Positions 9,655-63,628 of a DNA stretch of 64,000 nt are shown piece by piece. A program made the translations under genes and the position numbers. The stretch's first letter is position 1. Each line of letters opens with the position of its first letter. The notes under the pieces are model-generated. The model had not been told where the DNA came from, did not search any database, and saw only the letters and a list, made by a program, of their open reading frames with translations. The stretch comes from an uncultured Candidatus Saccharibacteria bacterium (GTDB lineage Bacteria; Patescibacteriota; Minisyncoccia; Phycocordibacterales; UBA9973), in the NCBI GenBank assembly GCA_964397435.1, contig CAYNHU010000002.1:17423-81422 (forward strand). Direction: 5' to 3'.

Positions 9655-9862
9655 ATATATAACTTAGTACTATTACTATACCTGTGGATTAGTGGATAAC
9701 TTTTTCTAACCCTATAAAACAATGATTTTTAATGATTTTTAAAATGTTTTGCTGGGTAAAACTTTTTTTATTTTTTCTATACCTATTTTTTAGTTATTTT
9801 TTATCCACACTCTTTTTTTAGAAATTCACTTTTTAAACATGATTTCCACAGAGCTTTGCGTA
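9655..9862. promoter_or_regulatory. oriC-like AT-rich region with DnaA boxes between dnaA and dnaN
   Basis: Contains TGTGGATTA at 9683-9691, AGTGGATAA at 9691-9699 and a perfect TTATCCACA at 9801-9809. Also has a direct repeat AATGATTTTTA twice and long A/T runs. Confidence 0.6.
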
Positions 9863-11224: not shown

Positions 11225-11285
11225 AGTGGTCGTATTATATCCCAGAGTTGTAACTCATGGTACTTTACACAACCTGTGAATAATG

Positions 11286-11303
11286 TGTGGATATTGTGGA
11301 TAT
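11286..11303. promoter_or_regulatory. two tandem DnaA boxes (TGTGGATAT TGTGGATAT) upstream of dnaA
   Basis: Two abutting 8/9 matches to TGTGGATAA in the yidD-dnaA intergenic spacer. Confidence 0.5.
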
Positions 11304-11546: not shown

Positions 11547-11558
11547 AGTTTTAGGGAT

Positions 11559-11885: not shown

Positions 11886-11895
11886 AGTTTTATGG

Positions 11896-12030
11896 TTAAA
11901 CAGTGAGTTTAGCGCGGCCTTTTCGGCGGCGGCGTGCGACAACCTTCTTTCCTGAAGTAGTTGCTTTTCGAGCGAGAAAACCGTGTGTCGTTGCGCGCTT
12001 TTTCTTTTTTGGCTTATACGTGAATGACAT
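11896..12030 (-). CDS. rpmH: 50S ribosomal protein L34
   Basis: 44 aa [44 protein letters not shown] matches the L34 consensus. It is the internal start of the listed 70 aa ORF. Confidence 0.9.
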
Positions 12031-15016: not shown

Positions 15017-15024
15017 AGGTTTTT

Positions 15025-16083
15025 TTACCAGTGAGCAACATGCCAGTGGTTACTTTCACGAATAAAGACTGCTGTACCGATAGTATATTGGCCAGCTTGA
15101 CCGCTTGGACAGCCGTCACCTGATTGACCTGTAATCCAGTCAACACATTTTTTTGTTGCCAATCCTTTGATGTAGCTATCAAGTGACGGTGTTCCGTTAG
15201 GAGAAAGGTCTACTTTACCACTTCCGATTTGGTGTGAACTGTGGAGCCAGCATTCTGTGCCGCCTGTCAGTGTGAGTTTACAAGTAGCGCTTTCTTTACA
15301 CACATCTTTTCGGAGATCTGCAAGAGACGAAACAGTTAATGCCCCAAGTTTATACACTGTAGTGCAGTCTGATTGTCCAACAGTTGCGCAGTTACTTTTA
15401 TTTACAAGTACACCAACTTCTTCGAGTTTACGACGGTAGTCTGCGTCATTGTCATTGATTTTTGAAAGCCCTCCCCAATTTTGACCGGTATTAAGCGCAA
15501 TTCCGTCCTCTGCTACTGCATTAACACTTGTTTGATCGCAGTTAGTCGTAACAGTTACATTTTGTCCGTTGATTGTTGTTGAGCGGTTCTTTGTTGGAGC
15601 TGGAAGTTCGTCTGTTCCACTAACTTGAACTGAGATACCCTTAGGTGGGTCGACACGAATATCAAGCAGACTTGGGTTGATTGTATTTAGAATAATCCAC
15701 GAGAATAACGCGAGGATGACACCGAAAATTGAGTTACTAATCATTTCTTTACCACCCTCTTTCTTTGAGACGGCGTCAGTTGTCATATACTGGACACCAC
15801 CAATAACGATCATAACTACACCAAGGCCACCAATGATACTTATGAAAATTTTAATAGCAAGGTTGATATAGTCAGCAATGTTTGTTTTAGCAGGATCATA
15901 TTTGTCGTAGACTTGTCCATCACCGAGTGGGATTGGTTCAAGTAAACAGTACTGTCCTGAATCTGTGTCTTCAGTACACACCGCTTGAGCCGGTGTTGGA
16001 AGTGTTGTAATGGCAAAAGTCCCCAAAGCAATAATACTTAGAAAACCAAGAGTTACGAAAATGTTTGAAAAATACGTTCGCAT
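15025..16083 (-). CDS. VirB2/TrbC-like pilin-type protein with about 200 aa Cys-rich C-terminal extension
   Basis: Signal peptide, then two hydrophobic helices (KIFISIIGGLGVVMIVIGGV and IFGVILALFSWIILNTI) separated by a short charged loop, as in T4SS pilins. The C-terminal domain has 10 Cys. Only 2 bp separate it from the upstream gene. Confidence 0.4.
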   Translation of the reverse strand: MRTYFSNIFVTLGFLSIIALGTFAITTLPTPAQAVCTEDTDSGQYCLLEPIPLGDGQVYDKYDPAKTNIADYINLAIKIFISIIGGLGVVMIVIGGVQYMTTDAVSKKEGGKEMISNSIFGVILALFSWIILNTINPSLLDIRVDPPKGISVQVSGTDELPAPTKNRSTTINGQNVTVTTNCDQTSVNAVAEDGIALNTGQNWGGLSKINDNDADYRRKLEEVGVLVNKSNCATVGQSDCTTVYKLGALTVSSLADLRKDVCKESATCKLTLTGGTECWLHSSHQIGSGKVDLSPNGTPSLDSYIKGLATKKCVDWITGQSGDGCPSGQAGQYTIGTAVFIRESNHWHVAHW

Positions 16084-16085
16084 AA

Positions 16086-17144
16086 TTATCTAAGATTAAT
16101 AGTAATATTTTTTTCTGCTTCAAGGAAGAGCTTTATAACATTCTCAACGCGTACAGTAAGTTTTGAGATTCCTTTTGATGCACCGCTTTTGAGTGTGAGC
16201 ATATTTGAAATACTTGGTGTTGGGATCGCATCATCGTTGATACTCCAGATGTATTTGAGTTGGTTTGAGAGTGGATTGTCTGGTGAGAAGAAGTATGGAA
16301 TTGCGAGAATCGTTTTTTCTGCATCACTTACATCATATGCTGCGCCAAGTTCGTGTGCCCAGTCGATACCGTTAATTGGGTCACGAGCGTACAACAATAT
16401 TTTTGGTTTAAAGACAGGCACGATAACTGTTCCTCGAGCAGTTGCCCCTGAAGTATTGTCTTGGCTGGTTACTTCAATCTGTTCCTGTTCATTGAGGTAA
16501 CTCTGTTGAAAGATAAGAGCGCTTTTGTTGAATCCAGAACTTTCTGTCTCAACAAGGTCATTGCGAACCCAGCGGAAGACATAATTATTGATATTTGCTG
16601 TAGTTCCTGAGCTGTTGATCTGTGGAATTGCTACAACACGAATGTAGCCTTCTGATGTTGGAAGTGCTCGTCCTCGATAAAATGGTGGTGTGTATGAGTC
16701 AGCTCCTTCCCAGATCAAATTTGATTCTGAAGGATTAAACACCATTCGTTTCTGAAGGGTTTCGCCTGAAGATAATGCCATTGCAATATCGATAGTTGTT
16801 TTCTGACCAATGTCCCCTGTGGTGAACGTAAACACATCCGCTCCTGTCGCTGAGAGTTCTGTTTTACCGTCTTTTTTCCAAACAAAAAACGCACGATTCA
16901 CATCAGTTAAGTAACTGTTTACAGTAATCGTGACGTCTTGGAATGCACCAGGGACTTCTGGTGACGCTGAAAATGAGATATCTTGAAGGTTAATCTGAGC
17001 AGCTTCTTGTGGAGTTGATTGAGCGTAGGCTCCTGATGACAAAATACCACCCGTTGCGAGAACGAACGCAAGTGCGAATGCATATACTATCGTACGAGGA
17101 AAACCTTTCACTCTTCTAGTATACCATGCAAAATGGCAATACAA
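16086..17144 (-). CDS. secreted hypothetical protein (signal peptide, 352 aa)
   Basis: N-terminal hydrophobic signal ending ...SGAYAQ. Tightly packed in the operon. Confidence 0.55.
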   Translation of the reverse strand: MYCHFAWYTRRVKGFPRTIVYAFALAFVLATGGILSSGAYAQSTPQEAAQINLQDISFSASPEVPGAFQDVTITVNSYLTDVNRAFFVWKKDGKTELSATGADVFTFTTGDIGQKTTIDIAMALSSGETLQKRMVFNPSESNLIWEGADSYTPPFYRGRALPTSEGYIRVVAIPQINSSGTTANINNYVFRWVRNDLVETESSGFNKSALIFQQSYLNEQEQIEVTSQDNTSGATARGTVIVPVFKPKILLYARDPINGIDWAHELGAAYDVSDAEKTILAIPYFFSPDNPLSNQLKYIWSINDDAIPTPSISNMLTLKSGASKGISKLTVRVENVIKLFLEAEKNITINLR

Positions 17145-17162
17145 GTATATTTTTGTGGGTTA

Positions 17163-19001
17163 TTAACGTCCTTGACTCTTTTCGAGGTCCTGCTTAGCCT
17201 TTTTGATTGCAAGGATTTGTGATGGATCAGATGTAACGATTTGTTCTTCGGTATATGAAGCGATAACTTTGATAGCAACGTGCTTAAGTCCAGCAAAGAA
17301 GATACCCTCACCTACCCCAGATTCCAAAAGGAGGTATTTTTCTTCGTCAGTTAGGTGGAATGTCTTTTGAAGGTTGTCGATTGAACTTGGTGACTGTTTA
17401 AGCAAGATTTGAATGGCTGAGTTTGTCACAATTGGAACACCATACTGGCTTTTCATAAAGTCGTCGATGTTTTGGGTAATAGTTGCCAAACCAAGGTAGT
17501 ATTTTCGTCCACGTTTTGCAATTCCAAACAAGAATGACGCTGTGTCTTCTGATTTCATCATAATCCACGCTTCGTCCACCACGAGCAAGCGCTTTTTGAG
17601 AGTTTTACGGACAGCAGTCCAGATATGGTGAGTAACGATGTACATGGCAACCGGCTTCAAGTCTTCTTCCATATCTCGGATTGAAAACACCACCAAACGC
17701 TTGTTGATATCAACGTTTGTTGGCTGGTTCAAGAATGTTGACCATGAACCTTTAGTGAATTTCTGAAGTCGCTGCAAGATTGATTCTGAGCCTTCCATGC
17801 CGGCAACAACCATTTCAAAGTCAGAAAGGAGTGGTGGCTCAACGTTTGCGAGGTCAGAGTCAGGTGTGATGTCTTTGAGAGCGTAGGTTTCTGTGATTGC
17901 ACGGTCAACGAGAGCATCTTCTTCTGGGCTTAAGCCGCCGAGCATGATGCGGAAGAGACCCACAAGTTCGATAACGTTACGGCGAATAACATCAGCCGTT
18001 GTTTCGTCAGCTGTTGGCATTGGCAAATCGAACGGGTTGATATGGTGGTCTGATGAAAGTGAAATGTTGAAGTAACGTCCCCCTACTGCTTCAGCAAGGT
18101 ATTCATATTCTCGTTCTGGGTCGATCACGATAACGTCAGTGTCGAACATCAATGTTCGCAAAATTTCGAGCTTGGTTGTAAATGATTTACCCGAACCAGA
18201 TGTTGCAATTGTTACTGAGTTGTAGTTTTCGAGTGAGAAACGATCAAAAATAATCAAACCAGAGTTATGGCGGTTAACCCCATACAAAATGCCTTTATCA
18301 GACGTAAGATCAAATGACACGAATGGAAAAAGGCTCGCGAGTGGTTCCGAGTTGAGTTTCTGGTGTACCCCGAGGAGGTCGTTGCCGATGGGAATAACAC
18401 TTTTGAAACCATCTTCTTGCTGGAAGAGTGCTGGTTTGATGTATACCAATTTTGATTCAAGAATAGATTTGATTTCGTTTTCTGTTTTGAACAGTTCCTG
18501 CTCGTTGTCTGCGTAGATAGTAATATACAAACCAACATCAAACATTTTTTGCTGTGCTTGCATCAAACTGTTACGCAAATTTTCAAGGTCATTCATCGCA
18601 GTATCAAGCATTGGATCACGAACAAGACCCTTACTCTCTCGAACATTAATCTGACTTTGTACTTCAGCTACTTTTTTCTGGAATTCACGGAGGATTTTTT
18701 CTGTTTCAATTGGATGAATGAAAATAGAAACATCAAAAATTTTATCGAGGTTGATGATTGGAGAAAACCAGTTGTCTGTCAAAAAGCGAGGATATGAGAT
18801 AACAAAAAATGTTCGAGCAATTTTGTCGCCAAGGTTAATTGATTTTGGTTCGATTTTGAGCGCTGATGGAGCAATAATATCTCGGAATTCAAGTGTTGCT
18901 GCTTCGTAGATTTCAGAAGGAAGCACAGGAAGAATACCACTCGCTGTTTGCGTCTGGCTGGTAGCTGTCTTTTTCCCAAATAATGAATCAAAGAATCCCA
19001 T
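17163..19001 (-). CDS. virB4: VirB4/TrbE/CagE-family type IV secretion ATPase
   Basis: Walker A motif IATSGSGKSF, Walker B motif LLVVDEAW, and TQ sensor motif ITQNIDDF. Length is 612 aa with no TM segment. Confidence 0.8.
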   Translation of the reverse strand: MGFFDSLFGKKTATSQTQTASGILPVLPSEIYEAATLEFRDIIAPSALKIEPKSINLGDKIARTFFVISYPRFLTDNWFSPIINLDKIFDVSIFIHPIETEKILREFQKKVAEVQSQINVRESKGLVRDPMLDTAMNDLENLRNSLMQAQQKMFDVGLYITIYADNEQELFKTENEIKSILESKLVYIKPALFQQEDGFKSVIPIGNDLLGVHQKLNSEPLASLFPFVSFDLTSDKGILYGVNRHNSGLIIFDRFSLENYNSVTIATSGSGKSFTTKLEILRTLMFDTDVIVIDPEREYEYLAEAVGGRYFNISLSSDHHINPFDLPMPTADETTADVIRRNVIELVGLFRIMLGGLSPEEDALVDRAITETYALKDITPDSDLANVEPPLLSDFEMVVAGMEGSESILQRLQKFTKGSWSTFLNQPTNVDINKRLVVFSIRDMEEDLKPVAMYIVTHHIWTAVRKTLKKRLLVVDEAWIMMKSEDTASFLFGIAKRGRKYYLGLATITQNIDDFMKSQYGVPIVTNSAIQILLKQSPSSIDNLQKTFHLTDEEKYLLLESGVGEGIFFAGLKHVAIKVIASYTEEQIVTSDPSQILAIKKAKQDLEKSQGR

Positions 19002-19006
19002 ACAAA

Positions 19007-19681
19007 TTATTTTAGCTTGATAGCTGATGAAATTTCCCCTGGATTGAAGACCTTGTAATACAATTCAATCGCCTCTTCTGTTCCAATCTGAACCGAGCGC
19101 ACACCGACACGAGTTAAGCCTTGCTGCACAACACTAATTCGCTGTTCAAGCTGTGTTCGCTTTTCTTCAAATTCAATTAATGAGTCACTTTTACCTCCTG
19201 GATTTGCTTGTTTTGAGCCGCCAAACAATGTTTTGTTAAGCGTACCACCTGCTCCAAGTGCTGATGGTGAATATGGAACAACAACAATGAACTGCTTAGT
19301 CATGATTGCTACTTCATCAGTAAAGTTACGGATGAAGTTAATGTACTCGCGAGTCTGGATTTTGAGAAGTGGTTCAAGCTGCTCCTTCATACGGCCTTCT
19401 AAGAGTGTGATGTATGGTCGAATATCAAGTCGTCGTGATTGCACAACAATCTGTACAGAGAAATCGAGAGAATTCAAAAAGTTCTGAAACTGCATGATGG
19501 TTCCCTGCTGTTCGTCACTTGATTTGAGTGAAAGGTTAACCGATGAAGCAAGCAAGAGGGCACGCATACTACCATCGCTTAAAACAATGATACCGTCACG
19601 TACCTCTTTGACTGGAACAAACTCTTGAGTTGCTTTTGCTTCAAGCGCCATCTCGAAATAGTATACCATATTAGAAACCAC
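19007..19681 (-). CDS. hypothetical protein; by eye its N-terminal pattern parallels the start of the adjacent VirB4-family protein (ATPase-less VirB4 N-domain-like)
   Basis: 224 aa ORF 5 bp upstream of virB4. It has no Walker motifs. The similarity is judged by inspection only. Confidence 0.5.
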   Translation of the reverse strand: MVSNMVYYFEMALEAKATQEFVPVKEVRDGIIVLSDGSMRALLLASSVNLSLKSSDEQQGTIMQFQNFLNSLDFSVQIVVQSRRLDIRPYITLLEGRMKEQLEPLLKIQTREYINFIRNFTDEVAIMTKQFIVVVPYSPSALGAGGTLNKTLFGGSKQANPGGKSDSLIEFEEKRTQLEQRISVVQQGLTRVGVRSVQIGTEEAIELYYKVFNPGEISSAIKLK

Positions 19682-19711
19682 CAGGGTGTTTCCTGTGGCG
19701 GTTTCTGGGTA

Positions 19712-20149
19712 TTACTGGTTTTGTTGATTTTTCTTTTTCTCCATATCGAGCACGTCAAGACTCCATGAGATGTCTTTCAGTTTTGAATTTGAGAGTTTCG
19801 GAATGTAGGCAAGATTACTCAATGTGTCAGCCTCGGCTTTTGGTGCTTCCGCTGCTTTTTTAGCAGCTGCCTTTCGTTGCTTCCAGACGTAAAGTTTTGA
19901 GCTAATGTAGTAGTTGAATGCCGATTCGAGTATGAGGATGAACGGACGGTTATTTACTTTGTAGAATGTAAGTGCAAGCGCCAACCCAGCAACAGGAAGA
20001 ATGACTGGTATTGCAAGGTAGATTGGAAGTATTTTATATAATACAAATGACGCACCCGCTCCACCCACGAGATAGATGAATTGCTTGAAGGTAAAAGGTC
20101 CGAAGATCTTGTCTTCAACATCAATAAATTGAGGAACCTGAAATTGCAT
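19712..20149 (-). CDS. PrgI/VirB3-like small membrane protein
   Basis: N-terminus MQFQVPQFIDVEDKIFGPFTFKQFIYLVGG and two TM helices match the PrgI-family (VirB3-like) pattern. Lies upstream of virB4 as in Gram-positive T4SS. Confidence 0.55.
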   Translation of the reverse strand: MQFQVPQFIDVEDKIFGPFTFKQFIYLVGGAGASFVLYKILPIYLAIPVILPVAGLALALTFYKVNNRPFILILESAFNYYISSKLYVWKQRKAAAKKAAEAPKAEADTLSNLAYIPKLSNSKLKDISWSLDVLDMEKKKNQQNQ

Positions 20150-20215
20150 ACGTATAGTATAACAGTTCGTAAAAGAAAAATCAGGGGTAATCCCCTGATT
20201 TTTCGAGTATCGATG

Positions 20216-21022
20216 TTATTCGATTGGTTCTCGGTATGAGTCAGCTCCTGATTTTGCTGGTGCTGGACTAACCGGTTTGATTGAGTGATCTGTTTCTTTT
20301 GCTGGAACACCGAATGTTCCGCCAAGCTTGCCTGCGAGAATGTCCGCAGTTGGCTGAGCTGTCATCGGAATTGGCTGGCTCGCTGCTCCGCTCGGTGTAG
20401 TACCAGCATATGGCGCTCGTGGTACTGGGATATCCATGCCTGCTGGCTTGATCGGTGGCATTGAACTTGGAGCTGCTGGAGCTGGTTTTGCCATTTCGTT
20501 CAACGGTCGAGCTACTGATTTCATCGGATTTTCAATGCTCTTCAAAAGTGCATCTCGATCCTCAGTTACCGCAGCATTTGGAGTTGTTTTAGGAAGTTCT
20601 ACTCCAACTGAAACACCAGAATTTGAGAGGATTGTTTTTTCAGTAGTGCTTACTTCGTCCTCTTCGTCGTCGTTTTCTTCTTCGCGAGAGTAGAGACTCA
20701 TAAGGGATGCTTTAATTGGCGCAAAAACCTGTTCTTTAATTTCAGAGATCATTTGAGTGAGTTCCCCTTTTTTCTTGCCGAGCTCTGTCTCAAGAGTATT
20801 TTCGTAGTTTGCTGGACTAGAAACTCCAAGGAGGACCATGGTTGTTTCAATTTCAAGTTTACCAAGTTGCTCGTATGTGAGCTTATATTTTTTTGCAGTT
20901 TCAAAAAGCTTCATTTGGTAATCGCTTGATGTTAGAATATTTTTTATTTCATCTGGAAGAAGCTCGAAACGTGTTCGAAGTTCTTTTTTTACATCATCAA
21001 AGTTGTCTTGTTGTGTGTCCAT
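20216..21022 (-). CDS. hypothetical protein with acidic stretch and Pro/Ala-rich C-terminus (268 aa)
   Basis: ORF within the operon. Has a low-complexity DDEEDE region. Confidence 0.55.
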   Translation of the reverse strand: MDTQQDNFDDVKKELRTRFELLPDEIKNILTSSDYQMKLFETAKKYKLTYEQLGKLEIETTMVLLGVSSPANYENTLETELGKKKGELTQMISEIKEQVFAPIKASLMSLYSREEENDDEEDEVSTTEKTILSNSGVSVGVELPKTTPNAAVTEDRDALLKSIENPMKSVARPLNEMAKPAPAAPSSMPPIKPAGMDIPVPRAPYAGTTPSGAASQPIPMTAQPTADILAGKLGGTFGVPAKETDHSIKPVSPAPAKSGADSYREPIE

Positions 21023-21065
21023 ACCAATGTCTTTTTATCTGCTAAAAGTATACCATGATTCACTA

Positions 21066-24000
21066 CTAATGATGCCCACCGCCATGGTCATCATGTCCGC
21101 CACCGTGTCCATGATCACCGTGTCCTCCGCCACCGTGACCACCGCTACCGCCTAAACCTTTAAGAAAACCAAAGAAATCTGAACTCGGTCCCTTATATGT
21201 ATCATGATAATGCACATGGTCATGTTTTTCTGTGCTTGTTACGTGATGCATTGTTTCGTATTTAATATCACCAAAAGCACCGCCAACTACATCCTTGATT
21301 GAGCTTGACAGAAATCCAGCTGCAAACCCTCCTAATCCCCCAAATGGACCAGCTACAATTGCACCAGCTGCTCCTGTTTGAAGACCACGCATAAGATTTT
21401 TTCCAAAATCTCGATAAAGATTTCTACCCGCACGTTCACCTGCCTGTGTGAATGATTCATGATCCATGTGCCCCACGTCTGTGATTGTTCCAAGTTCATC
21501 ACGTTTTGTGCCATGCACATGACGACCACCTTCTTTCATGAGTGATAAGTGATATTGTTTAAGTCGAGCAGTTTTAAGATTCTCAAGATTTTTCTGCATT
21601 GAAGTGAGGCTGCGAGAGTTTTCAAAGTCAGCTGCTGTGATTCTTTTAACAGAAGTGGAACCATCGCGTTTTTTAACTTCAACAGCGTTTCCAATGTCTG
21701 ATTTTGAGATAGCCCGAGTTTTACCACTAGCATCAACGATTTTTTCACCAGATCCTTTTTGAAGTGTTCGTAACTTTTCTTTTTCTGTACTGAGGGCTGC
21801 TTGTTTAGTTGCAACAGTTGCCATGATTGCTTTTCCAGCAGGAGACTTTTTACCAGCCGCTTCAGCGTCAGATCTCAATTTTGCAATTTCTTCTTCACCT
21901 CGAGCTACAACATCAGTTTGGTCTGAAATTTCTGTCTCGCGATCCTTCATTTTTTTCTCTTCGTCAGCGTACTGTTTCTTGTCATAGCCACTTCCAAATA
22001 TTTTCTCATCCTCCTTGGCTTTCTTGGTATCTCTATCAACCATAGCTGTATATCCACCAGCCCGAGCGCCTGTGCTTAAATCTACTCCTACACCAGCAAG
22101 AGTACTTGCTGTATTGAGTAATCCAGCACCAGTATTCATATTTACGTTTGTTGCTTTTGAAATAACGTTACCAAGACCTGTTTGACGAGCATCAAAACTT
22201 GCAGATTTTAGATTATTAGCAACACGAAGTTTTTGTTGGGCTTGCCATCGTTCAAATTTAGTCGCATCTCGTATCGTGCCGTCCTTATTTTTTACTTTAC
22301 CGGACGCCATATCTTTAAGTCGGTCACTATTTGCAACATCAGCAGCCTTCCCTCCAATAAATCGTGCGCCGAGAGCTGCTGCCCCACCAGTCGCTGCCAT
22401 CGCTACCATACCTGTTCCAGCTGCAATTACACCGGCAAATGCACCACCGAACTGTCCAGCCATACTCTCAGCTTGTTTTTTTGCTTCCATAAGCAAGCCA
22501 ATAACAATCATGGTTGGGAGGAGAATTCCAACGAGGAATGCAACCCAGTTTCCATTTTGAGCATTAGTGATAGCACCTATTGTTGAGCCAAGCAAACCAC
22601 CACCAGGACCACCAACGAGGTTTACGATGAGATACAAGAAAAAGAAGAATACAGGGGCTTTGAAACACGCACTCAAGAATGTTTTGAGCCACTCTCCCCA
22701 GCCAAGTTGTTTGAGTCCGTGGTCGAGTGATGGAACAATGCTTGAAACAAATGCGATCGGTGCAAAAATCATCGAGAACCAAATAACTCCAACTCGTCCC
22801 GCAAAAAATGCAGCACACATGAAGAATATCCAGGCCATGATTATGTTCAAGATAAATGAAATCAAGAGCACCATGAATAAAGTACCTGGCGTTACTGACT
22901 GACCGTTACTGCGGAGCTTCTCAAGACTTTCCCCACTCAATAGTTTTTGTGGTTGAATACCACTAATTACAGCAGCAGAAATTGATTTTTCTTTAGGGGC
23001 AGTATCATCAAATGTTGTTGCGGGATTACCTACTGACGAGATATCCATCGCGTTATAAAATACACGGGACAAAACGTTTGATGCATCGATTGCAACGCGA
23101 CAGAAGAACAAACTAAAGTTAATCAAAAGCGCGACAATGATAACCTGAGAAACAATTTTTTTGACGCTTGTTCCATGAAGGTGAAGTGAAAGCACAAGAC
23201 TGAGTGCTGCATAGAGGAGGATGAAGATAAAGAAAATGTTTGCAACGTCGCGGACAACACTCCAGCCATTTTCAACGAACGATGCGATATCAGCTCCATT
23301 GGTTCCCTGTCCGTAAATAGTACTACCGAGTGAAACAGCAGCAAAAGCGTCAAAAAGACGACCTGCCTGCTGAGCAAGCCAGTGTGAAGTACTAACAAAG
23401 ATGTCATTAAACAAAATAACAAAACAAGGTGACCACTTTGTGATTGAACAATCAAGGTCAGCTACGAACGCATCCTGACCACTTTGTTCTGGTGTTTGAC
23501 CGAGTGCTTCTTTAACAGCATCTTCAATTGGTACTGCGCCAAATTTGTTTTCTGGAGCATCAGCTTTTGTTTTTACTTCAACAACATTACTGAAAAACCA
23601 GTTTGTTGAGTTGTCTTCTTCGGCGACTAACTGGAAGTAGTAGGTTGTATTAGGTTCAAGATTAGTAATTGCAACAACCGGGTTGAATGAGTCTTTTTTG
23701 TAGAATTTTTCTGGATATGCACTAAAAATTTTCAACAATTCTACGGCTGAGTTGTCCCCTGGACTTGATGTCTTTCGAGCGAGACTGTACAAACTACCTG
23801 CATCACCTGGAGCAACATCCGGTTTGCGAACCTGGAAGTTACTGACGTTTGATGAGTCATTTAAAAGCTCGGCAGAACTTTGACCAGTATCAACATCAGC
23901 TTTAGTTGTTTTACCTTTACTGACTTGGAGAAAGAATCCGTTATCACGGTTTCCTCCCCCATTTACTGCACCATTAAAGTTTATTTCGTTATAAAATGCG

Positions 24001-24356
24001 TCCCAGGCACTTTCCTTAAGGTCATTCCAATCAAGAGCTCCATGTCCACTAAGTCCAGTGTCTTGGTCTTTTGCTGTGTAGGCATCACCATCGCGACCGA
24101 GAATCATATCAATTTTAAGGTCGACTGCGTCAGAATATTGAGAAACTTTATTTACGGGATCTCCACCTATTTGGGTGAGTTTAATTCCGTTAGCTGGACT
24201 ACAATATGCTCCACTCTCACAAAAGTCGCCACCATCACTTGCGTTCAAAACAGTTTTTCCGTCAATAGCGAGTGCGCGGTTAACCGTACCAAAAGGAAGA
24301 ACCATACTTGCGAGTATGGTGAGTGTCATTATTGCAACGGATAATTTGGAGCGCAT
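21066..24356 (-). CDS. VirB6/TrbL-like polytopic membrane protein with large N-terminal extracellular domain and C-terminal His/Gly-rich tail (1096 aa)
   Basis: Signal peptide, then an extracellular domain of about 350 aa. At least 6 TM helices with TrbL/VirB6-like spacing. Long predicted-disordered C-terminus ending GGSGGHGGGGHGDHGHGGGHDDHGGGHH. Confidence 0.5.
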   Translation of the reverse strand: MRSKLSVAIMTLTILASMVLPFGTVNRALAIDGKTVLNASDGGDFCESGAYCSPANGIKLTQIGGDPVNKVSQYSDAVDLKIDMILGRDGDAYTAKDQDTGLSGHGALDWNDLKESAWDAFYNEINFNGAVNGGGNRDNGFFLQVSKGKTTKADVDTGQSSAELLNDSSNVSNFQVRKPDVAPGDAGSLYSLARKTSSPGDNSAVELLKIFSAYPEKFYKKDSFNPVVAITNLEPNTTYYFQLVAEEDNSTNWFFSNVVEVKTKADAPENKFGAVPIEDAVKEALGQTPEQSGQDAFVADLDCSITKWSPCFVILFNDIFVSTSHWLAQQAGRLFDAFAAVSLGSTIYGQGTNGADIASFVENGWSVVRDVANIFFIFILLYAALSLVLSLHLHGTSVKKIVSQVIIVALLINFSLFFCRVAIDASNVLSRVFYNAMDISSVGNPATTFDDTAPKEKSISAAVISGIQPQKLLSGESLEKLRSNGQSVTPGTLFMVLLISFILNIIMAWIFFMCAAFFAGRVGVIWFSMIFAPIAFVSSIVPSLDHGLKQLGWGEWLKTFLSACFKAPVFFFFLYLIVNLVGGPGGGLLGSTIGAITNAQNGNWVAFLVGILLPTMIVIGLLMEAKKQAESMAGQFGGAFAGVIAAGTGMVAMAATGGAAALGARFIGGKAADVANSDRLKDMASGKVKNKDGTIRDATKFERWQAQQKLRVANNLKSASFDARQTGLGNVISKATNVNMNTGAGLLNTASTLAGVGVDLSTGARAGGYTAMVDRDTKKAKEDEKIFGSGYDKKQYADEEKKMKDRETEISDQTDVVARGEEEIAKLRSDAEAAGKKSPAGKAIMATVATKQAALSTEKEKLRTLQKGSGEKIVDASGKTRAISKSDIGNAVEVKKRDGSTSVKRITAADFENSRSLTSMQKNLENLKTARLKQYHLSLMKEGGRHVHGTKRDELGTITDVGHMDHESFTQAGERAGRNLYRDFGKNLMRGLQTGAAGAIVAGPFGGLGGFAAGFLSSSIKDVVGGAFGDIKYETMHHVTSTEKHDHVHYHDTYKGPSSDFFGFLKGLGGSGGHGGGGHGDHGHGGGHDDHGGGHH

Positions 24357-50924: not shown

Positions 50925-51006
50925 GACCCTCCTTTTTGGAAGGTGTCAATGCTCGTTTGAGGCAAAAATATTGTCCGACATTGGTTTAGCACGTATACTT
51001 ATATAT

Positions 51007-51978
51007 ATGTCAGAGCTTGAGCGTTTGAAACAACAATTTTTGGAATACATGGAAATCGAACGTGGCGCTAGTTTGAAAACAGTGCGCAATTACGATTTGT
51101 ATGTTTCTCGCTACCTCGCATTTTCAAAAGCAAAAAGCGCGGAAGATATCACCGAAGACTCTGTCCGCGAATTTCGATTGCAGTTGAATCGCGCGCCTGG
51201 CGTCTATGTCAAAGGACAGGCGCGCGCCACAATGAAAAAAAATACGCAGAACTACTATCTCATCGCACTTCGCCGATTTCTCAAATATCTCATGAAGCGC
51301 GGTATCACCTCACTCTCTCCTGATCGTATTGAATTAGCAAAAGTTGGCGCGCGCCACCTCGACCTCATTTCTGTTGATGAATTGAGTCGATTAATGAAAT
51401 CCCCTGCGCTCGTTTTCGCTTCAGTTAAAAAAGAAGATGCACAAACAACTCGAAAAGCAGAACTCATGATGTTGCGCGACACTGCTCTTTTGGAACTTTT
51501 CTTTTCTACCGGATTGCGTCTCTCTGAATTGTGCTCACTCAATCGAGACCTCGATCTATCAAAAGATGAATTTTCAATTCGTGGTAAAGGTGAAAAAATT
51601 CGCGTTGTGTTTTTGTCTGACGAAGCAAAAACTGCAATTCGAAACTATCTTAACAAGCGAGTAGACATGGAAGAGCCAATGTTTGTTTCGGTATCGGGTA
51701 AGCGCGGCTCGCACAATGGAACAAGCGAGCCGCGCCTCACTCCTCGCTCAATCGAACGCATTGTGAAACAGCATGCAATCAACGCGGGTATTTCTCGTAA
51801 GGTTACTCCGCATGTACTTCGTCACTCATTTGCAACTGATCTGCTTTCAAACGGTGCTGATATTCGTTCAGTGCAGATGATGCTTGGTCACGCCAATATT
51901 GCGACAACACAGGTGTACACGCACGTCACTGACAAACAACTCCGTGAAGTACACAAAAAGTTTCATAGTAAAAAATAA
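51007..51978 (+). CDS. xerC: tyrosine recombinase XerC/XerD family
   Basis: C-terminal catalytic region ...LRHSFATDLLSNGADIRSVQMMLGHANIATTQVYTHV carries the R-H-R-Y signature. Start at MSELERLKQQF. Confidence 0.85.
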   Translation: MSELERLKQQFLEYMEIERGASLKTVRNYDLYVSRYLAFSKAKSAEDITEDSVREFRLQLNRAPGVYVKGQARATMKKNTQNYYLIALRRFLKYLMKRGITSLSPDRIELAKVGARHLDLISVDELSRLMKSPALVFASVKKEDAQTTRKAELMMLRDTALLELFFSTGLRLSELCSLNRDLDLSKDEFSIRGKGEKIRVVFLSDEAKTAIRNYLNKRVDMEEPMFVSVSGKRGSHNGTSEPRLTPRSIERIVKQHAINAGISRKVTPHVLRHSFATDLLSNGADIRSVQMMLGHANIATTQVYTHVTDKQLREVHKKFHSKK

Positions 51979-60118: not shown

Positions 60119-61603
60119 TTATTTTTTTACTCCGTGTTTACTGCGAATTTTTAACAACTCTTCTTCTTCTGTTTCCTTTTTTGCTTTTTTACCCTCTTCC
60201 CCTTTTACTCGCAATTCAGCATCAGAGAGTTCATTGAGTTCGAGTACTCGTTTTTTTAAATACTCAACTTCATTGGTATCCGGATTTTCGAGTGCTTCTT
60301 CGAGAAGCGCATGCAAGATCCACCCCATGCGTGGTCCCGGCTTGATACCAAGTTCTTTAATCATCACTTCCCCATTTATTTTGAGCATGCCGACAGATGT
60401 TGGTGCGCGCAATGCTTCTTCGATCATTGCGTGATATTTACGCAATCGATACGGAGCCTCAGCTTTTTTCATACCAACACGATCGCATTCACGAACCTGC
60501 ATCAACTCCCAAATATGTTCACGGCCAATATTTACAATGGTGCGTCGCACTGCTGAAAGTGTAATTGTCTCAGTGTCAGAAAAGAACATGTGATAGCGAA
60601 CAAGTTTCGTAACTAGTTCTGAGAGGTCTTTTGGATAACGAAGACGAGCCATAATTTTTGCAGTCATTCGTGCACCTACAACTTCATGTCCATAGAATGT
60701 TGGTTTGAGTTTGCCAGGACGTTTAGTTCGTGGTTTACCAATATCATGGAAGAGTGCAGCTAAACGAATCGCAAGCGACCACTCTTTTTCTGCTGCATGT
60801 CCGAGTGCTTGAAGTAAATGTTCAAATACATCATATATATGTGCACCTCCCTGCTCGTTTCCAATACCTTCGCGAAGTTCAGGAATGAGTTCTTGTAACA
60901 AACCAAGACGCTCGAGCATTCCAACACCAACCATCGGTTCTTGCGATTCAATAATTTTTGTAAATTCATCACGCTTACGTTCCCATGAAATATGTTCAAG
61001 GAGGTGTGAGTTTTCCACAATGCCCTGCATTGTTTCGGAACCGATAGAAAAACCTAATTGTGTGGAAAACCTCACAGCACGCAACATGCGTAATGCGTCT
61101 TCACGAAAACGTTCAGATGCATCACCAACAGCACGAATGACTTTGTCCTTCATATCACGGACACCATCAAATTCATCAACGAGCAGTCCGTTAGTAGGAT
61201 TGTATGCCAAAGCATTGACCGTGAAATCGCGTCTTTTTAAATCATCAAGCAAATTAAGGCTAAAAGAGACATCATCAGGATGTCTGTTATCGCTATACCC
61301 TGTTTCGAGACGATAGGTTGTAATTTCGATTACTTTGAGTGTTGGATCAGTTTCTTCCTCGTATACAATACCAACTGTTCCAAACATGTTTTCATACACA
61401 GCTTTTGGGTAGAGTTCTTGAATTTGTTCTGGTGTAGCATTTGTTGCGATATCCCAATCTTTTGGTTTTCTTCCAAGGAAAATATCTCGCACACAACCAC
61501 CAACGATGTATGCTTCATATCCAGCTGTTTCAAGTACGCCAAGAGCCTCGATTACTCGAGTTGGAATATCTTCTCTTTTGATCGTAGTTTGGCTTAGAGC
61601 CAT
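60119..61603 (-). CDS. cca: CCA-adding tRNA nucleotidyltransferase with HD domain
   Basis: Pol-beta nucleotidyltransferase motif GGCVRDIFLG...DWDIAT and HD phosphohydrolase domain HDIGK. Start MALSQTT at 61603 abuts tRNA-Gly; the ORF extension to 61654 overlaps the tRNA. Confidence 0.85.
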   Translation of the reverse strand: MALSQTTIKREDIPTRVIEALGVLETAGYEAYIVGGCVRDIFLGRKPKDWDIATNATPEQIQELYPKAVYENMFGTVGIVYEEETDPTLKVIEITTYRLETGYSDNRHPDDVSFSLNLLDDLKRRDFTVNALAYNPTNGLLVDEFDGVRDMKDKVIRAVGDASERFREDALRMLRAVRFSTQLGFSIGSETMQGIVENSHLLEHISWERKRDEFTKIIESQEPMVGVGMLERLGLLQELIPELREGIGNEQGGAHIYDVFEHLLQALGHAAEKEWSLAIRLAALFHDIGKPRTKRPGKLKPTFYGHEVVGARMTAKIMARLRYPKDLSELVTKLVRYHMFFSDTETITLSAVRRTIVNIGREHIWELMQVRECDRVGMKKAEAPYRLRKYHAMIEEALRAPTSVGMLKINGEVMIKELGIKPGPRMGWILHALLEEALENPDTNEVEYLKKRVLELNELSDAELRVKGEEGKKAKKETEEEELLKIRSKHGVKK

Positions 61604-61610
61604 AATAACT

Positions 61611-61684
61611 TGGTGCGGGTAGGGAGAATCGAACTCCCGTCTCATCCTTGGCAAGGACGTGTTCTACCACTAAACCATACCCGC
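61611..61684 (-). tRNA. tRNA-Gly (anticodon GCC), CCA encoded
   Basis: Manual cloverleaf fold: acceptor GCGGGTA/TACCCGC, anticodon loop TTGCCAA, T-loop TTCGATT. Confidence 0.85.
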
Positions 61685-61824
61685 GTTTATAAATGGTAAC
61701 GTGGACCATTATATATAAAGTTTTATTATTTTGCAATTGTGTGTATAATAACTGACGTTACTCGTTAGTAAAAACAAGTTAAATACGCTAGTAAGATATC
61801 CAGAAGTTCTTAGACGAGGTATCT

Positions 61825-61899
61825 GCACCCATGGTGAAATGGATATCACAACGGTCTTCGGAACCGTTATTGGGGGTTCGAATCCCTCTGGGTGCACCA
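61825..61899 (+). tRNA. tRNA-Arg (anticodon TCG), CCA encoded
   Basis: Manual fold: acceptor GCACCCA/TGGGTGC, D-stem GTGA/TCAC, anticodon stem ACGGT/ACCGT with loop CTTCGGA, T-loop TTCGAAT. Confidence 0.75.
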
Positions 61900-61903
61900 A
61901 GCA

Positions 61904-61945
61904 ATCCCCCAGCGCCGGCTATGCCGGCGCTGGGGGATTTTCTTA
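61904..61945 (+). terminator. terminator ATCCCCCAGCGCCGGC-TAT-GCCGGCGCTGGGGGAT + TTTCTT after tRNA-Arg
   Basis: 16 bp perfect stem. Confidence 0.6.
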
Positions 61946-62234
61946 TACCCATCCTACATAGATGACCTATAGCAACTACGGAGCCATTAGAAAGGCCCTG
62001 GACTCACACATTTGACAAACACTCTCCTATTGCATAATTCTGTCAATCCCACTACTATGTCCTTTTCCCCATTTTTTAACCTTATTTTTCAATAGTATGT
62101 GGATAAGTCTGTGTACTATGTTTATAAAAGACATCATTTCGTATTGTCTAATTATTGCGTCTTTTATGAAAAAAGCTTGATAAATAAGGATATTTTGATT
62201 TTTAGGACTACTAATCCCCAACCCAGAATCTAAA

Positions 62235-62502
62235 TGTTTCACGTGAAACACTTAAATAGTAACTGTTTCATATGAAACAGGTTAAGACATTAAAAATCTT
62301 AAATATAAAACACGAAGTGTTACACATGAAACAAAAAGCACCAAAAACAGTGAAACAAATAAATTTAGATCCTTTTTATTTATATTTTATAGCTTATATC
62401 TATAATAACTGTTACACATGAAACACTGTATTTAAATCATGTCTCAGTACACAGATTGAAATACTTTTTGTTTATTAACCATAAAACGTTTCATGTGTAA
62501 CA
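62235..62502. repeat. array of six related palindromic/inverted 15-18 bp motifs (TGTTTCACGTGAAACA, CTGTTTCATATGAAACAG, TGTTACACATGAAACA x2, GTGAAACA half-site, TGTTTCATGTGTAACA) upstream of yraN
   Basis: Copies at 62235-62250, 62263-62280, 62318-62333, 62347-62358, 62410-62425 and 62488-62502. The last ends 4 bp before the yraN ATG. Related CACGTG-cored palindromes also occur inside yraN (GTTTCACGTGAAAG at about 62683 and TGTCACGTGACA at about 62753). Confidence 0.55.
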
Positions 62503-62505
62503 CTT

Positions 62506-62910
62506 ATGCCGAGAGTTTTCACATCAAAAAGCCAAAAAATAGGACAAATAGGAGAAAAACTTGCCGCTCTATATCTTACAAAACAAGGTTTTAGTATTAA
62601 AGATATTAACTATACAAAACCATGGGGTGAGATAGATATTGTTGCTTTAAAAGACAATATAATTCATTTTATAGAAGTAAAATCAGTTTCACGTGAAAGT
62701 AAATCTGGTTTAGCTATTAAAAATAAGGATTTATATAGGCCAGAAGAAAATCTGTCACGTGACAAGTTGCGTAAACTCTATAGGACAATAGGGTTATATC
62801 TAAAAGACAAAAATATGACCGATAGGGTAGAGTGGCAACTGGACCTCATTTGCGTATACCTTGAGCCGTCTAAAAAGATGGGTAAAGTTAAGTATCTTGA
62901 AAATATCTGA
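62506..62910 (+). CDS. yraN: YraN/UPF0102-family predicted endonuclease
   Basis: Motifs GEIDIVAL...IHFIEVK fit the UPF0102 (PD-(D/E)xK-like) signature. Length is 134 aa. Confidence 0.75.
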   Translation: MPRVFTSKSQKIGQIGEKLAALYLTKQGFSIKDINYTKPWGEIDIVALKDNIIHFIEVKSVSRESKSGLAIKNKDLYRPEENLSRDKLRKLYRTIGLYLKDKNMTDRVEWQLDLICVYLEPSKKMGKVKYLENI

Positions 62911-63185
62911 AATAAGTAAAGACAGGTCGGCGTGTGTGGGTTTGTTTGTATTTTGGATTGCCTGTGTTTTTATGTAGATTTTTGTATCTTTATTGATATA
63001 CATAATTGATATACATATACAGCAGAGCAGGGTGGGGTGGTTTTTAAAAGTCCTCAAATAAAGCCCCCTAAAAAAAGAGTACTCTAAATAACACTCTAAT
63101 ATCACATAACTACCACATAAATCTGTTGCAAATATTGTATAAAATAAAAAATATGCTACTATAGGCTGGTCGCATGACATTTTTT

Positions 63186-63256
63186 CGGGGTGTAGTATAT
63201 CGGTAGTATACATGTTTTGGGAACATGAGGGCCGGGTTCGATTCCCGGCACCCCGA
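63186..63256 (+). tRNA. probable tRNA-Pro (anticodon TGG), CCA not encoded
   Basis: Acceptor CGGGGTG/CACCCCG, T-arm CCGGG-TTCGATT-CCCGG, anticodon stem CATGT/ACATG with loop TTTGGGA. The D-arm/position-26 geometry is atypical in the manual fold. Confidence 0.55.
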
Positions 63257-63268
63257 CACTAAAAATAT

Positions 63269-63628
63269 ATGGATATTGAAAAAGTAAAAAACATGGCACC
63301 TGCACCAGTTGGTGCTGTAAAGGATCAGTTTGTTGGTTTCATAAACTTTATTCGTGAGCAAGGCGTTGTTGGACTTGCAGTCGGTTTCATTTTGGGTGGG
63401 GCAGTATCAAAGACTGTTTCTTCACTTGTTGAAAACGTTATCAACCCACTTGTTGGTATTTTGCTCGGCAAAGTAAACCTTACTGATCGAGCTCTCGTTG
63501 TTGGCTCAGCGACACTCAAATACGGCGCTTTTATTTCAACACTAATTGATTTTGTTATTATCGCAGCGGTTGTGTACTTTGGAGTTCGCGCACTTGGCCT
63601 CGATAAGTTGGACAAGAAAAAGCAGTAA
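63269..63628 (+). CDS. mscL: large-conductance mechanosensitive channel MscL
   Basis: 119 aa with TM1 motif VVGLAVGFILGGAVSKTVSSLVENVINPLVG, a second TM helix and a K-rich C-terminus. Confidence 0.9.
   Translation: MDIEKVKNMAPAPVGAVKDQFVGFINFIREQGVVGLAVGFILGGAVSKTVSSLVENVINPLVGILLGKVNLTDRALVVGSATLKYGAFISTLIDFVIIAAVVYFGVRALGLDKLDKKKQ

What the first reader, a model, noticed from the sequence alone, without database searches (positions are those of the whole stretch)
61900..62505. 600 bp tRNA-flanked non-coding region with a perfect DnaA box plus six iteron-like palindromes abutting yraN
Between tRNA-Arg and yraN there is no credible ORF. Instead there is a perfect TGTGGATAA DnaA box at 62099-62107, a TTGACA/ATAATT promoter-like pair near 62012-62039, and six copies of a TGTT(T/A)CA-N2-TGAAACA family motif. 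These include two perfect palindromes of 16 and 18 bp, two identical 16-mers 92 bp apart, and an inverted copy overlapping the yraN ribosome-binding region. The combination of DnaA box, iterons and AT-rich DNA is the classic architecture of a plasmid or phage replication origin, or of a DnaA-titrating locus. Alternatively it is an operator array for a dimeric regulator controlling yraN. Or it is a structured ncRNA, since perfect palindromes form hairpins when transcribed. Its position next to tRNA genes is also typical of integration sites.
Basis: seen in the sequence. Interest (0 to 1): 0.65.

Follow-up and report, generated by a model that had tools for sequence, protein, structure and literature searches.

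The report
parS centromere array beside DnaA boxes
The "iteron-like" palindromes are textbook parS sites, the bacterial centromere where ParB loads to segregate the chromosome; they sit next to a deeply conserved trio of DnaA-binding boxes in a candidate-phyla-radiation bacterium, which is ordinary in kind although the tight DnaA-parS pairing deserves a look.

Summary
Five 16-bp palindromes lie at 62235-62502 and nowhere else in 64 kb, and there is a perfect DnaA box at 62098-62106.

The interpretation needs correcting. Site 1, TGTTTCACGTGAAACA, is letter for letter the consensus chromosomal parS, the ParB/Spo0J loading site. The other four sites are 2-3-mismatch variants.

In 80 related Patescibacteria genomes, 170 parS-like sites occur in 825 kb. 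All of them lie in the syntenic yraN - tRNA - CCA-enzyme zone, or in one displaced copy of it, and some sit in-frame inside coding sequence. None occurs in 1.04 Mb around dnaA in 80 further relatives.

The DnaA box is the centre of a conserved non-coding module found in the window and 52 relatives. The box is perfect in 45 of these 53, with weaker boxes fixed at -36 and +21. The module lies upstream of the first parS at distances that step by about 10.5 bp.

The real oriC is most likely the very AT-rich, box-flanked dnaA-dnaN spacer 51 kb away.

This is not an iteron origin, a structured ncRNA, a dispersed repeat or an integration site. No ParB gene could be located in the sequence available.

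Verdict: an origin-proximal centromere array with an attached DnaA-binding module. It is a new member of a known kind.

The parts
61825..61899 (+). tRNA-Arg(TCG), left boundary of the region
   Evidence: ARAGORN and Rfam tRNA at 65.9 bits.
61903..61946 (+). Intrinsic terminator of tRNA-Arg: a 17-bp perfect G+C-rich stem followed by a T-tract
   Evidence: (I4).
62012..62039 (+). Promoter-like TTGACA-15-CATAAT (TG just upstream), pointing towards the DnaA boxes, parS and yraN. Conserved only in the two closest relatives.
   Evidence: Sequence and alignment A1. It did not pass the scan's spacer rule. Function is inferred only.
62043..62214 (.). 'Block A': a conserved non-coding DnaA-box module
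   Evidence: nhmmer found one copy per locus in 52 of 80 related loci. The alignment is A2. RNAalifold predicted 0 pairs.
62063..62071 (+). Weak DnaA box, TTTTCCCCA (2 mismatches to TTATCCACA), at the conserved -36/-35 position
   Evidence: A box with 1 or fewer mismatches sits at this position in 15 of 53 genomes.
62098..62106 (-). Strong DnaA box, TGTGGATAA (TTATCCACA on the - strand), the invariant anchor of block A
   Evidence: One mismatch or fewer in 53 of 53 genomes and perfect in 45.
62119..62127 (-). Weak DnaA box, TGTTTATAA (2 mismatches), at the conserved +21 position in the same orientation as the anchor
   Evidence: One mismatch or fewer in 19 of 53 genomes. The ATAA is invariant.
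62077..62092 (.). Left arm of the CCTTAT...-type inverted repeat flanking the DnaA-box core. Role unknown.
   Evidence: I18. Similar palindromes cluster at about -20 in relatives.
62177..62192 (.). Right arm of the same inverted repeat (TTGATAAATAAGGATA)
   Evidence: I18. The cluster in relatives is at +70 to +90.
62235..62250 (.). parS-1, TGTTTCACGTGAAACA, identical to the consensus parS
   Evidence: The consensus is quoted in 10.1101/724823. It lies 137 bp from the DnaA box, on the 10.5-bp ladder.
62264..62279 (.). parS-2, TGTTTCATATGAAACA. The centre changes from CG to TA but the site stays a perfect palindrome.
   Evidence: This is the commonest variant in relatives, 14 of 170 sites.
62318..62333 (.). 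parS-3, TGTTACACATGAAACA (2 mismatches)
62410..62425 (.). parS-4, TGTTACACATGAAACA, identical to parS-3
62487..62502 (.). parS-5, TGTTACACATGAAACG on the - strand (3 mismatches). It abuts the yraN start codon.
   Evidence: In most relatives a parS lies within tens of bp of the yraN 5' end.
62685..62700 (.). Degenerate intragenic parS-like site, AGTTTCACGTGAAAGT, inside yraN. It encodes V-S-R-E-S.
   Evidence: It uses the same reading frame as the in-frame parS copies in relatives' CCA genes. L009 and L010 carry a site with 1-2 mismatches at a position consistent with this, roughly 200 bp into yraN.
62506..62910 (+). yraN (UPF0102, PD-(D/E)XK-like), the gene immediately downstream of the parS array
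   Evidence: Pfam PF02021, E = 5.8e-17.
9655..9862 (.). Best oriC candidate (context, not part of the finding): the very AT-rich dnaA-dnaN spacer flanked by DnaA boxes
   Evidence: The arrangement is conserved in 69 relatives.

Best explanation
The region is the chromosomal centromere of a Patescibacteria (Paceibacteria/Nomurabacteria-like) genome. It is an array of five parS sites in 270 bp of AT-rich DNA, about 51 kb from the dnaA-dnaN origin, and it is joined to a conserved DnaA-binding module.

**Mechanism (inferred from the ParABS paradigm, not shown here).**
- ParB dimers recognise each 16-bp palindrome, bind CTP, close into clamps and slide onto flanking DNA.
- Several adjacent sites raise the loading rate.
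- The resulting partition complex recruits SMC, and ParA if the genome has one, to organise and separate the origin-proximal DNA.

**The DnaA module.** Upstream, at a helically phased distance, one strong and two weak DnaA boxes have fixed spacing (-36, 0, +21). They should hold a short DnaA oligomer. This would couple, or report, initiator status at the centromere, as described for Caulobacter. Alternatively it would simply titrate DnaA or regulate transcription.

**yraN.** The last parS abuts the yraN start codon, so ParB occupancy probably also dampens yraN expression.
For: **Shown.**
- Site 1 equals the consensus parS TGTTTCAC-GTGAAACA (quoted).
- All six sites with 3 or fewer mismatches cluster in 62235-62700, with none elsewhere in the 64-kb window. 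There are also none (2 or fewer mismatches) in the 12 kb of flanking contigs.
- The site family is conserved at the syntenic place in relatives whose flanking CCA enzyme is only 47-83% identical. 170 sites lie in 825 kb; 160 are within -2.5 to +1.5 kb of the CCA start, and the other 10 belong to one displaced copy of the module.
- There are zero sites in 1.04 Mb around dnaA in 80 other relatives.
- Variation is confined to positions 1/16, 5/12 and 8/9.
- Copies inside the CCA gene always use the frame V-S-x-E-T, at six or more different codon positions. Selection is therefore on the DNA word, independent of promoters.
- dnaA, dnaN and an oriC-like spacer lie 51 kb away.
- The literature states that parS sites almost always lie near oriC.
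- The DnaA box is conserved within one mismatch in 53 of 53 genomes, with a fixed triad.
- The box-to-parS distance follows a 10.5-bp ladder: R = 0.70 for all offsets, and R = 0.64 with p about 0.002 on unique values.
- There is a precedent for DnaA boxes in a parS region.
Against: - No ParB or ParA gene was found in about 76 kb of this genome (Pfam on about 55 ORFs; tblastn with authentic B. subtilis Spo0J and a Soj sequence recalled from memory).
- None was found in about 1.9 Mb of relatives' loci either. The cognate protein is therefore assumed, not shown.
- Four of the five sites differ from consensus at 2-3 positions, including the central CG. Their affinity is unknown.
- Genome size is unknown, so 'origin-proximal' is known only as 51 kb.
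- The phasing statistic is inflated by shared ancestry among the genomes.
- No binding or expression data exist.
Confidence: 0.8

Rival explanations
1. The region is a replication origin. Either it is the real oriC of this lineage, or it is a plasmid- or phage-type iteron origin, with the DnaA boxes and AT-rich DNA used for unwinding and the palindromes bound by an initiator.
For: - A deeply conserved strong DnaA box has two same-phase weaker boxes.
- The DNA is 30% G+C.
- Genes diverge from the locus: CCA and tRNA-Gly run leftward, while tRNA-Arg, yraN and mscL run rightward.
- GC skew cannot exclude it, because skew follows gene strand in this genome.
Against: - A better origin exists. The dnaA-dnaN spacer is 13-26% G+C, 130-270 bp long, and box-flanked in 69 relatives. 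There are also about 2 boxes upstream of dnaA and the classical rnpA/dnaA/dnaN context.
- In the window, block A has only one good box.
- The repeats are palindromes at irregular spacing (29, 54, 92 and 77 bp), not phased direct iterons, and they equal parS.
- There is no rep gene.
- There is no similarity to plasmids or phages.
Confidence: 0.07
2. The DnaA-box module is the main functional element. On this view it is a datA- or DBC-like DnaA-titration or regulatory locus (or a DnaA-controlled promoter for yraN), and its adjacency to parS is incidental shared ancestry.
For: - A conserved box triad lies outside oriC.
- A promoter-like element sits upstream in the closest relatives.
Against: - It does not explain the parS array.
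- The module and parS stay together when separated from CCA (L073) or from yraN (L081).
- Their distance is constrained to a 10.5-bp ladder, which suggests more than coincidence.
Confidence: 0.1
3. The palindromes are operators for a dimeric transcription factor other than a segregation ParB, and that factor represses yraN.
For: - In most relatives a site lies within tens of bp of the yraN start. In the window it ends 3 nt before the ATG.
- No ParB gene was found.
Against: - The sequence is exactly parS.
- Arrays of 5-10 sites, and in-frame copies at six or more positions inside the neighbouring CCA gene, have no operator logic.
- In L081 the sites stay with block A, 800 bp from yraN.
Confidence: 0.04
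4. The region encodes a structured non-coding RNA whose hairpins are the palindromes.
For: - The RNA fold of 62040-62510 has z = -4.65.
- There is a promoter-like element at 62012.
Against: - No Rfam family has a credible hit in the region, even at E up to 10.
- RNAalifold predicts 0 conserved pairs in 53 homologues of block A.
- The low folding energy is an automatic consequence of DNA palindromes.
- The palindromes also occur inside protein-coding sequence.
Confidence: 0.02

Closest known systems
Chromosomal parS / ParB (Spo0J) centromere, as in Bacillus subtilis and most bacterial phyla
   Same: It has the identical 16-bp consensus TGTTTCACGTGAAACA. Variation at position 5 is tolerated. There are few sites, they lie near the origin, they are conserved in relatives, and some sit inside genes.
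   Different: Five sites are packed into 270 bp of intergenic DNA, rather than being scattered over tens to hundreds of kb. The array is not next to parAB, and no ParB has yet been located. The lineage (Patescibacteria) has no parS description in the searchable literature.
Caulobacter crescentus parS region with DnaA boxes (Mera et al. 2014, as reviewed in PMC6399470)
   Same: DnaA boxes lie beside parS, and this is a documented precedent for the initiator acting at the centromere.
   Different: Here the boxes form a fixed triad conserved across the window and 52 relatives, at a helically phased distance from parS. The locus is 51 kb from oriC rather than about 8 kb. Binding is untested.
Plasmid centromeres such as F sopC or P1 parS
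   Same: They are dense arrays of ParB-binding inverted repeats in non-coding DNA.
   Different: The sequence here is the chromosomal parS type, the spacing is irregular, there is no adjacent parAB operon, and there is no plasmid similarity.
E. coli datA and B. subtilis DnaA-box clusters outside oriC
   Same: They are conserved clusters of DnaA boxes away from the origin.
   Different: There are only about 3 boxes here, and the cluster is physically coupled to parS. The strict IHF consensus is not enriched.
Iteron-type origins with a DnaA box
   Same: They combine AT-rich DNA, a DnaA box and repeated protein-binding sites.
   Different: The repeats here are palindromes rather than direct, phased iterons, and there is no Rep gene. 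The palindromes have a known and different identity.

Membership tests
Chromosomal parS centromere (ParABS) | A 16-bp palindrome matching TGTTNCACGTGAAACA | tested here: met
   Site 1 is an exact match. The other four have 2-3 mismatches, at positions that also vary in relatives.
Chromosomal parS centromere (ParABS) | Few copies, clustered and origin-proximal rather than dispersed | tested here: met
   All sites lie in 62235-62700 and there are none elsewhere in about 76 kb. The array is 51 kb from the dnaA-dnaN oriC candidate. Relatives have no sites outside the module in 560 kb, and none in 1.04 Mb of dnaA loci. Genome size is unknown.
Chromosomal parS centromere (ParABS) | Conservation of the sites across related genomes, independent of coding or promoter context | tested here: met
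   46 of 56 loci with enough upstream sequence carry sites. In-frame VSxET copies occur in the CCA gene.
Chromosomal parS centromere (ParABS) | A cognate ParB encoded in the same genome | not testable with these tools
   ParB is absent from the about 76 kb available and from 1.9 Mb of relatives' loci. The rest of the genome could not be fetched.
Chromosomal parS centromere (ParABS) | ParB binding and CTP-dependent spreading at the sites | not testable with these tools
   This needs ChIP-seq, EMSA or a clamp-loading assay.
Bacterial oriC | A cluster of several DnaA boxes with an adjacent unwinding element | tested here: inconclusive
   There is one strong box and two weak boxes with fixed spacing in AT-rich DNA, but no recognisable DUE or trio repeat.
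Bacterial oriC | Being the best origin candidate of the replicon (dnaA linkage or skew switch) | tested here: not met
   The dnaA-dnaN spacer is a stronger and conserved candidate. Skew is uninformative at both places.
Iteron-type plasmid or phage origin | Direct, regularly phased iterons with an adjacent rep gene | tested here: not met
   The repeats are palindromes spaced 29, 54, 92 and 77 bp apart. No Rep protein was found. There was no plasmid or phage match.
DnaA-box cluster outside oriC (datA / DBC type) | Conserved multiple DnaA boxes at a non-origin locus | tested here: met
   Triad at -36, 0 and +21. The anchor box is within one mismatch in 53 of 53 genomes.
DnaA-box cluster outside oriC (datA / DBC type) | DnaA titration or inactivation activity | not testable with these tools
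   This needs genetics or biochemistry.
Structured ncRNA | A match to a known family, or conserved base pairs with covariation | tested here: not met
   Rfam gave only tRNAs and sub-threshold chance hits. RNAalifold predicted 0 pairs.
REP-like dispersed repeat | Many copies spread over the genome | tested here: not met
   There are no copies outside the locus.
tRNA-linked integration site or mobile-element scar | An adjacent integrase, duplication of the tRNA 3' end, and variable presence among relatives | tested here: not met
   The only tyrosine recombinase is 10 kb away and is XerC/D-like. No att-like duplicate was found. Synteny is conserved in more than 50 genomes.

The most novel reading that the evidence does not exclude
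The DnaA-box triad and the parS site(s) form one conserved, helically phased replication-segregation coupling module. A short DnaA-ATP oligomer on the triad would sit on the same DNA face as the first ParB clamp-loading site, 12-17 helical turns away, and would license or modulate centromere assembly. This would generalise to a whole class of ultra-small bacteria the DnaA-at-centromere effect so far described only in Caulobacter. A more radical variant is that the lineage lacks canonical ParB and another protein reads these sites.
Probability: 0.25. Interest if true: 0.7.

Novelty: new member of a known kind. Interest (0 to 1): 0.4.

Why it matters
The cell biology of Patescibacteria (CPR) is almost unknown, and I found no description of their centromeres in the searchable literature.

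Pinning the parS array gives three practical things:
- a landmark for orienting these genomes;
- a ready-made partition cassette for the genetic tools now being built for the group;
- a specific target for ParB and SMC studies.

The conserved, phased DnaA-box module next to parS would matter more if it proves functional. It would indicate that cross-talk between the initiator and the centromere is ancient and widespread, not a Caulobacter peculiarity.

Tried and rejected
- **Rfam:** an E-value scan of 61500-63300 found only tRNAs and chance hits.
- **RNAalifold:** 53 block-A homologues gave no pairs. The strong single-sequence fold is attributed to the DNA palindromes.
- **GC skew for placing the origin:** the window profile, fourfold-site skew and skew averaged over relatives at block A and at dnaA all follow gene strand. 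Skew is therefore uninformative.
- **IHF:** the strict consensus WATCAANNNNTTR next to the DnaA box is not enriched, so that idea was dropped.
- **ParB/ParA hunt:** I tried Pfam on about 55 window ORFs, motif regexes, tblastn with Spo0J and Soj on all loci, extension of the contig on both sides, and a protein database search. The database search returned only Bacillus proteins. It did confirm that the Spo0J query sequence is authentic. The Soj (ParA) query was recalled from memory and was not checked in the same way.
- **Literature:** searches for parS or ParB in Patescibacteria/CPR found nothing relevant.
- **Plasmid and phage similarity:** none.
- **Small ORFs in the region as genes:** rejected.

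Full report

Yes. The stretch between tRNA-Arg (61825-61899) and yraN (62506-62910) holds five full copies of a 16-bp palindrome family, at 62235, 62264, 62318, 62410 and 62487.
- A degenerate search found 10 strand-hits against 0.76 expected, and no shuffle reached that number.
- Against the strict consensus the five sites have 0, 2, 2, 2 and 3 mismatches. A sixth site with 3 mismatches lies inside yraN at 62685. There is no site with 3 or fewer mismatches anywhere else in the 64-kb window.
- The perfect DnaA box is at 62098-62106. Taken alone it is unremarkable, because the window holds three perfect copies.
- tRNA-Arg is followed by a 17-bp G+C-rich terminator hairpin.
- The small ORFs in the region have no Pfam match and are broken by non-triplet indels in close relatives.

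**2. What are the palindromes?**

TGTTTCACGTGAAACA (62235-62250) is letter for letter the consensus parS, the loading site of the chromosome-partition protein ParB/Spo0J.
- All 15 papers listed of the 27 that print this 16-mer concern ParB/Noc, chromosome partition or replication origins.

**3. Comparative evidence**

The neighbouring CCA-adding enzyme gene (Pfam) was used to fetch 80 loci from species-representative genomes.
- All are Patescibacteria MAGs, labelled Paceibacterota, Nomurabacteria, Parcubacteria or (in the TPA assemblies) Saccharibacteria. Protein identity is 47-83%.
- Gene order is conserved: CCA, tRNA-Gly/tRNA-Arg, a non-coding block, parS, yraN, and often tRNA-Pro/tRNA-Gly.
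- In these 825 kb there are 170 sites within 2 mismatches of parS. My own estimate of the chance expectation is about 0.2.
- 160 of the 170 lie between -2.5 and +1.5 kb of the CCA start. The other 10 are a single array in L073, where the whole block-parS-yraN unit sits 3 kb further away.
- 46 of the 56 loci with enough upstream sequence have sites there.
- As a negative control, 80 dnaA loci from metagenomes (63-91% DnaA identity, 1.04 Mb) contain no parS-like site at all.
- Variation among the 170 sites is confined to positions 1/16, 5/12 and the central 8/9. The palindromic CATATG variant seen at 62264 is the commonest form.
- Many relatives also carry copies inside the CCA coding sequence. 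These are always in the frame V-S-[R/H/G/Y]-E-T, at six or more different codon positions where the window's protein has other residues. The degenerate site in the window's yraN uses the same frame (VSRES).
- Selection therefore acts on the DNA word wherever it can be accommodated. That fits a ParB nucleation site and does not fit a promoter-bound operator.

**4. The DnaA box is real too, as part of a conserved module**

Aligning the window with its three closest relatives exposed a conserved non-coding block upstream of the parS array.
- A profile of this block finds exactly one copy per locus in 52 relatives, always between the tRNAs and parS.
- In the 53-sequence alignment the invariant columns are those of the box T-G-(T)-G-G-A-(T)-A-A, a following G and ATAA. 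The ungapped core reads TGTGGATAAcTaTGTGtgtAttGttnATAAaaGACa.
- The box is within one mismatch in 53 of 53 sequences and perfect in 45.
- A second box in the same orientation sits at +21, two helical turns away (1 or fewer mismatches in 19 of 53).
- A third box, in inverted orientation, sits at -36 (1 or fewer mismatches in 15 of 53).
- In the window these flanking boxes are weak: TGTTTATAA and TTTTCCCCA.
- RNAalifold finds no conserved pair in the block, so it is a DNA-level element.
- Its distance to the first parS is not free. Offsets fall into classes near 126, 137 (the window), 146, 158, 167 and 179 bp. The Rayleigh R is 0.70 at a best period of 10.5 bp for all offsets, and R = 0.64 with p about 0.002 when only unique values are used.
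- Shared ancestry inflates this statistic, so I treat the phasing as suggestive.
- Block and parS stay together when separated from CCA (L073) or from yraN (L081).

**5. Is it an origin?**

Probably not.
- dnaA (9863-11224), dnaN, rnpA and yidC are in the window.
- The 208-bp dnaA-dnaN spacer has TGTGGATTAGTGGATAA at one end and TTATCCACA at the other. Between them are about 100 bp of very AT-rich DNA with a repeated ATGATTTTTA. Three tandem boxes lie upstream of dnaA.
- In 69 relatives this spacer is 87-351 bp long (mostly 130-270), is 9-28% G+C, and carries on average 2.0 boxes. A further 1.8 boxes lie in the 350 bp upstream of dnaA. The background is 0.67 boxes per kb.
- In relatives rnpA is usually divergent from dnaA, the classical origin context.
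- GC skew could not arbitrate. At fourfold-degenerate sites it follows gene strand, and averaged profiles show no lasting switch either at block A or at dnaA.
- No Rep-like protein was found, and there is no plasmid or phage similarity.
- The palindromes are irregularly spaced rather than phased direct iterons.

**6. Other alternatives**
- Structured ncRNA: there is no Rfam hit and no covariation. The favourable fold (z = -4.65) follows automatically from the palindromes.
- REP-like repeat: excluded by the distribution of sites.
- Integration site: there is no adjacent integrase. The only tyrosine recombinase is XerC/D-like and lies 10 kb away. There is no att-type duplication, and synteny holds across more than 50 genomes.

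**7. How it most likely works**

Shown:
- sequence identity to parS;
- clustering of the sites;
- conservation across relatives;
- proximity to the origin candidate;
- the conserved box triad.

Inferred from established ParABS biology:
- ParB dimers nucleate on each palindrome, bind CTP, close into sliding clamps and spread.
- Five sites in 270 bp make a strong loading zone.
- The complex recruits SMC, and ParA if present, to organise and separate the origin region.

Further inference:
- The strong DnaA box should be occupied constitutively, with the two weak boxes filled by DnaA-ATP. This would put an initiator oligomer on the same helical face as the first parS.
- Its role could be coupling of segregation to initiation potential, as reported for Caulobacter, where DnaA binds boxes in the parS region (Mera et al. 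2014, via PMC6399470). It could also be titration or transcriptional control.
- The last parS ends 3 nt before the yraN ATG, and most relatives keep a parS within tens of bp of that start. ParB probably also limits yraN expression.

**8. What is missing**

No ParB or ParA gene was found.
- Pfam on about 55 ORFs of the window found none.
- tblastn with B. subtilis Spo0J and Soj found none in the window, its flanking contigs or about 1.9 Mb of relatives' loci. The Spo0J query was confirmed 100% authentic; the Soj query was recalled from memory and not verified.
- The remainder of the genome could not be retrieved.
- The literature I could search says nothing on ParB or parS in this phylum.
- The cognate protein is therefore an assumption, although a strong one given that the site consensus is fully canonical.

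**9. Comparison, novelty and score**

The array passes every sequence-level and distribution-level test for a chromosomal parS centromere. The protein-level tests could not be run. It fails the tests for an iteron origin, ncRNA, REP element and integration site.
- It differs from the B. subtilis pattern by its density (five sites in 270 bp; up to ten in 700 bp in L073) and by not being next to parAB.
- It resembles the Caulobacter centromere in having DnaA boxes, but here they form a fixed, phased triad conserved across a whole class.
- I rate it a new member of a known kind, with interest 0.4. A specialist would expect parS in these genomes. The conserved DnaA-parS module is the part that could repay experiments.

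Noticed in passing
window 9655-9862 and 11275-11303: This is a classical oriC-like architecture. The dnaA-dnaN spacer is very AT-rich, carries a repeated ATGATTTTTA, and is flanked by TGTGGATTAGTGGATAA and TTATCCACA. Three tandem DnaA boxes lie upstream of dnaA. The arrangement is conserved in 69 metagenome relatives.
   Followed up: yes
window 11307-12030 (- strand): rpmH, rnpA, a YidD-like 79-aa ORF (PTCSEY motif, identified by eye), dnaA and dnaN are all co-directional here. In 39 of 40 relatives rnpA is divergent from dnaA, which suggests a local inversion in this lineage.
   Followed up: partly
L008-L087, CCA-enzyme coding sequence (for example L034:6231-6246, L053:6552-6567, L018:1502-1517): parS copies are embedded in-frame in the CCA-adding enzyme gene. 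They always encode V-S-[R/H/G/Y]-E-T, at six or more different codon positions in different genomes. The window's own CCA gene has none.
   Followed up: yes
L073:1924-2632 (JAQVEZ010000002.1): Ten parS-like sites lie in about 700 bp, spaced mostly 27-68 bp apart, next to block A and yraN. The unit is displaced 3 kb from the CCA gene. It is the densest array seen.
   Followed up: partly
relatives, 16-46 bp upstream of the first parS (for example L034, L016, L040): In the 145-160 bp spacing classes, a conserved pair AAAGACA ... TGTCyTATAAA sits at fixed distances (43-46 and 16-19 bp) upstream of parS. A second palindrome, GTTACACATGTAAC, follows about 25 bp after the first parS, just before the yraN ATG. 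The role of the pair is unknown.
   Followed up: partly
window 13394-24356 (- strand): This is a type IV secretion-like gene cluster: a T4SS pilin domain protein, a VirB4/TraG-like ATPase, a PrgI-family protein and several large proteins without Pfam hits.
   Followed up: no
window 62992-63017: There is an exact 13-bp tandem duplication, ATTGATATACATA x2, in the spacer between yraN and tRNA-Pro.
   Followed up: no
whole window: At fourfold-degenerate third codon positions the coding strand prefers C over G in nearly every gene. GC skew therefore tracks transcription direction and hides any replication signal.
   Followed up: yes
window 50971-51978: A XerC/D-type tyrosine recombinase (Phage_integrase plus SAM-like N-terminal domains) lies 10 kb from the tRNA cluster. 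It is not adjacent to any tRNA gene.
   Followed up: no
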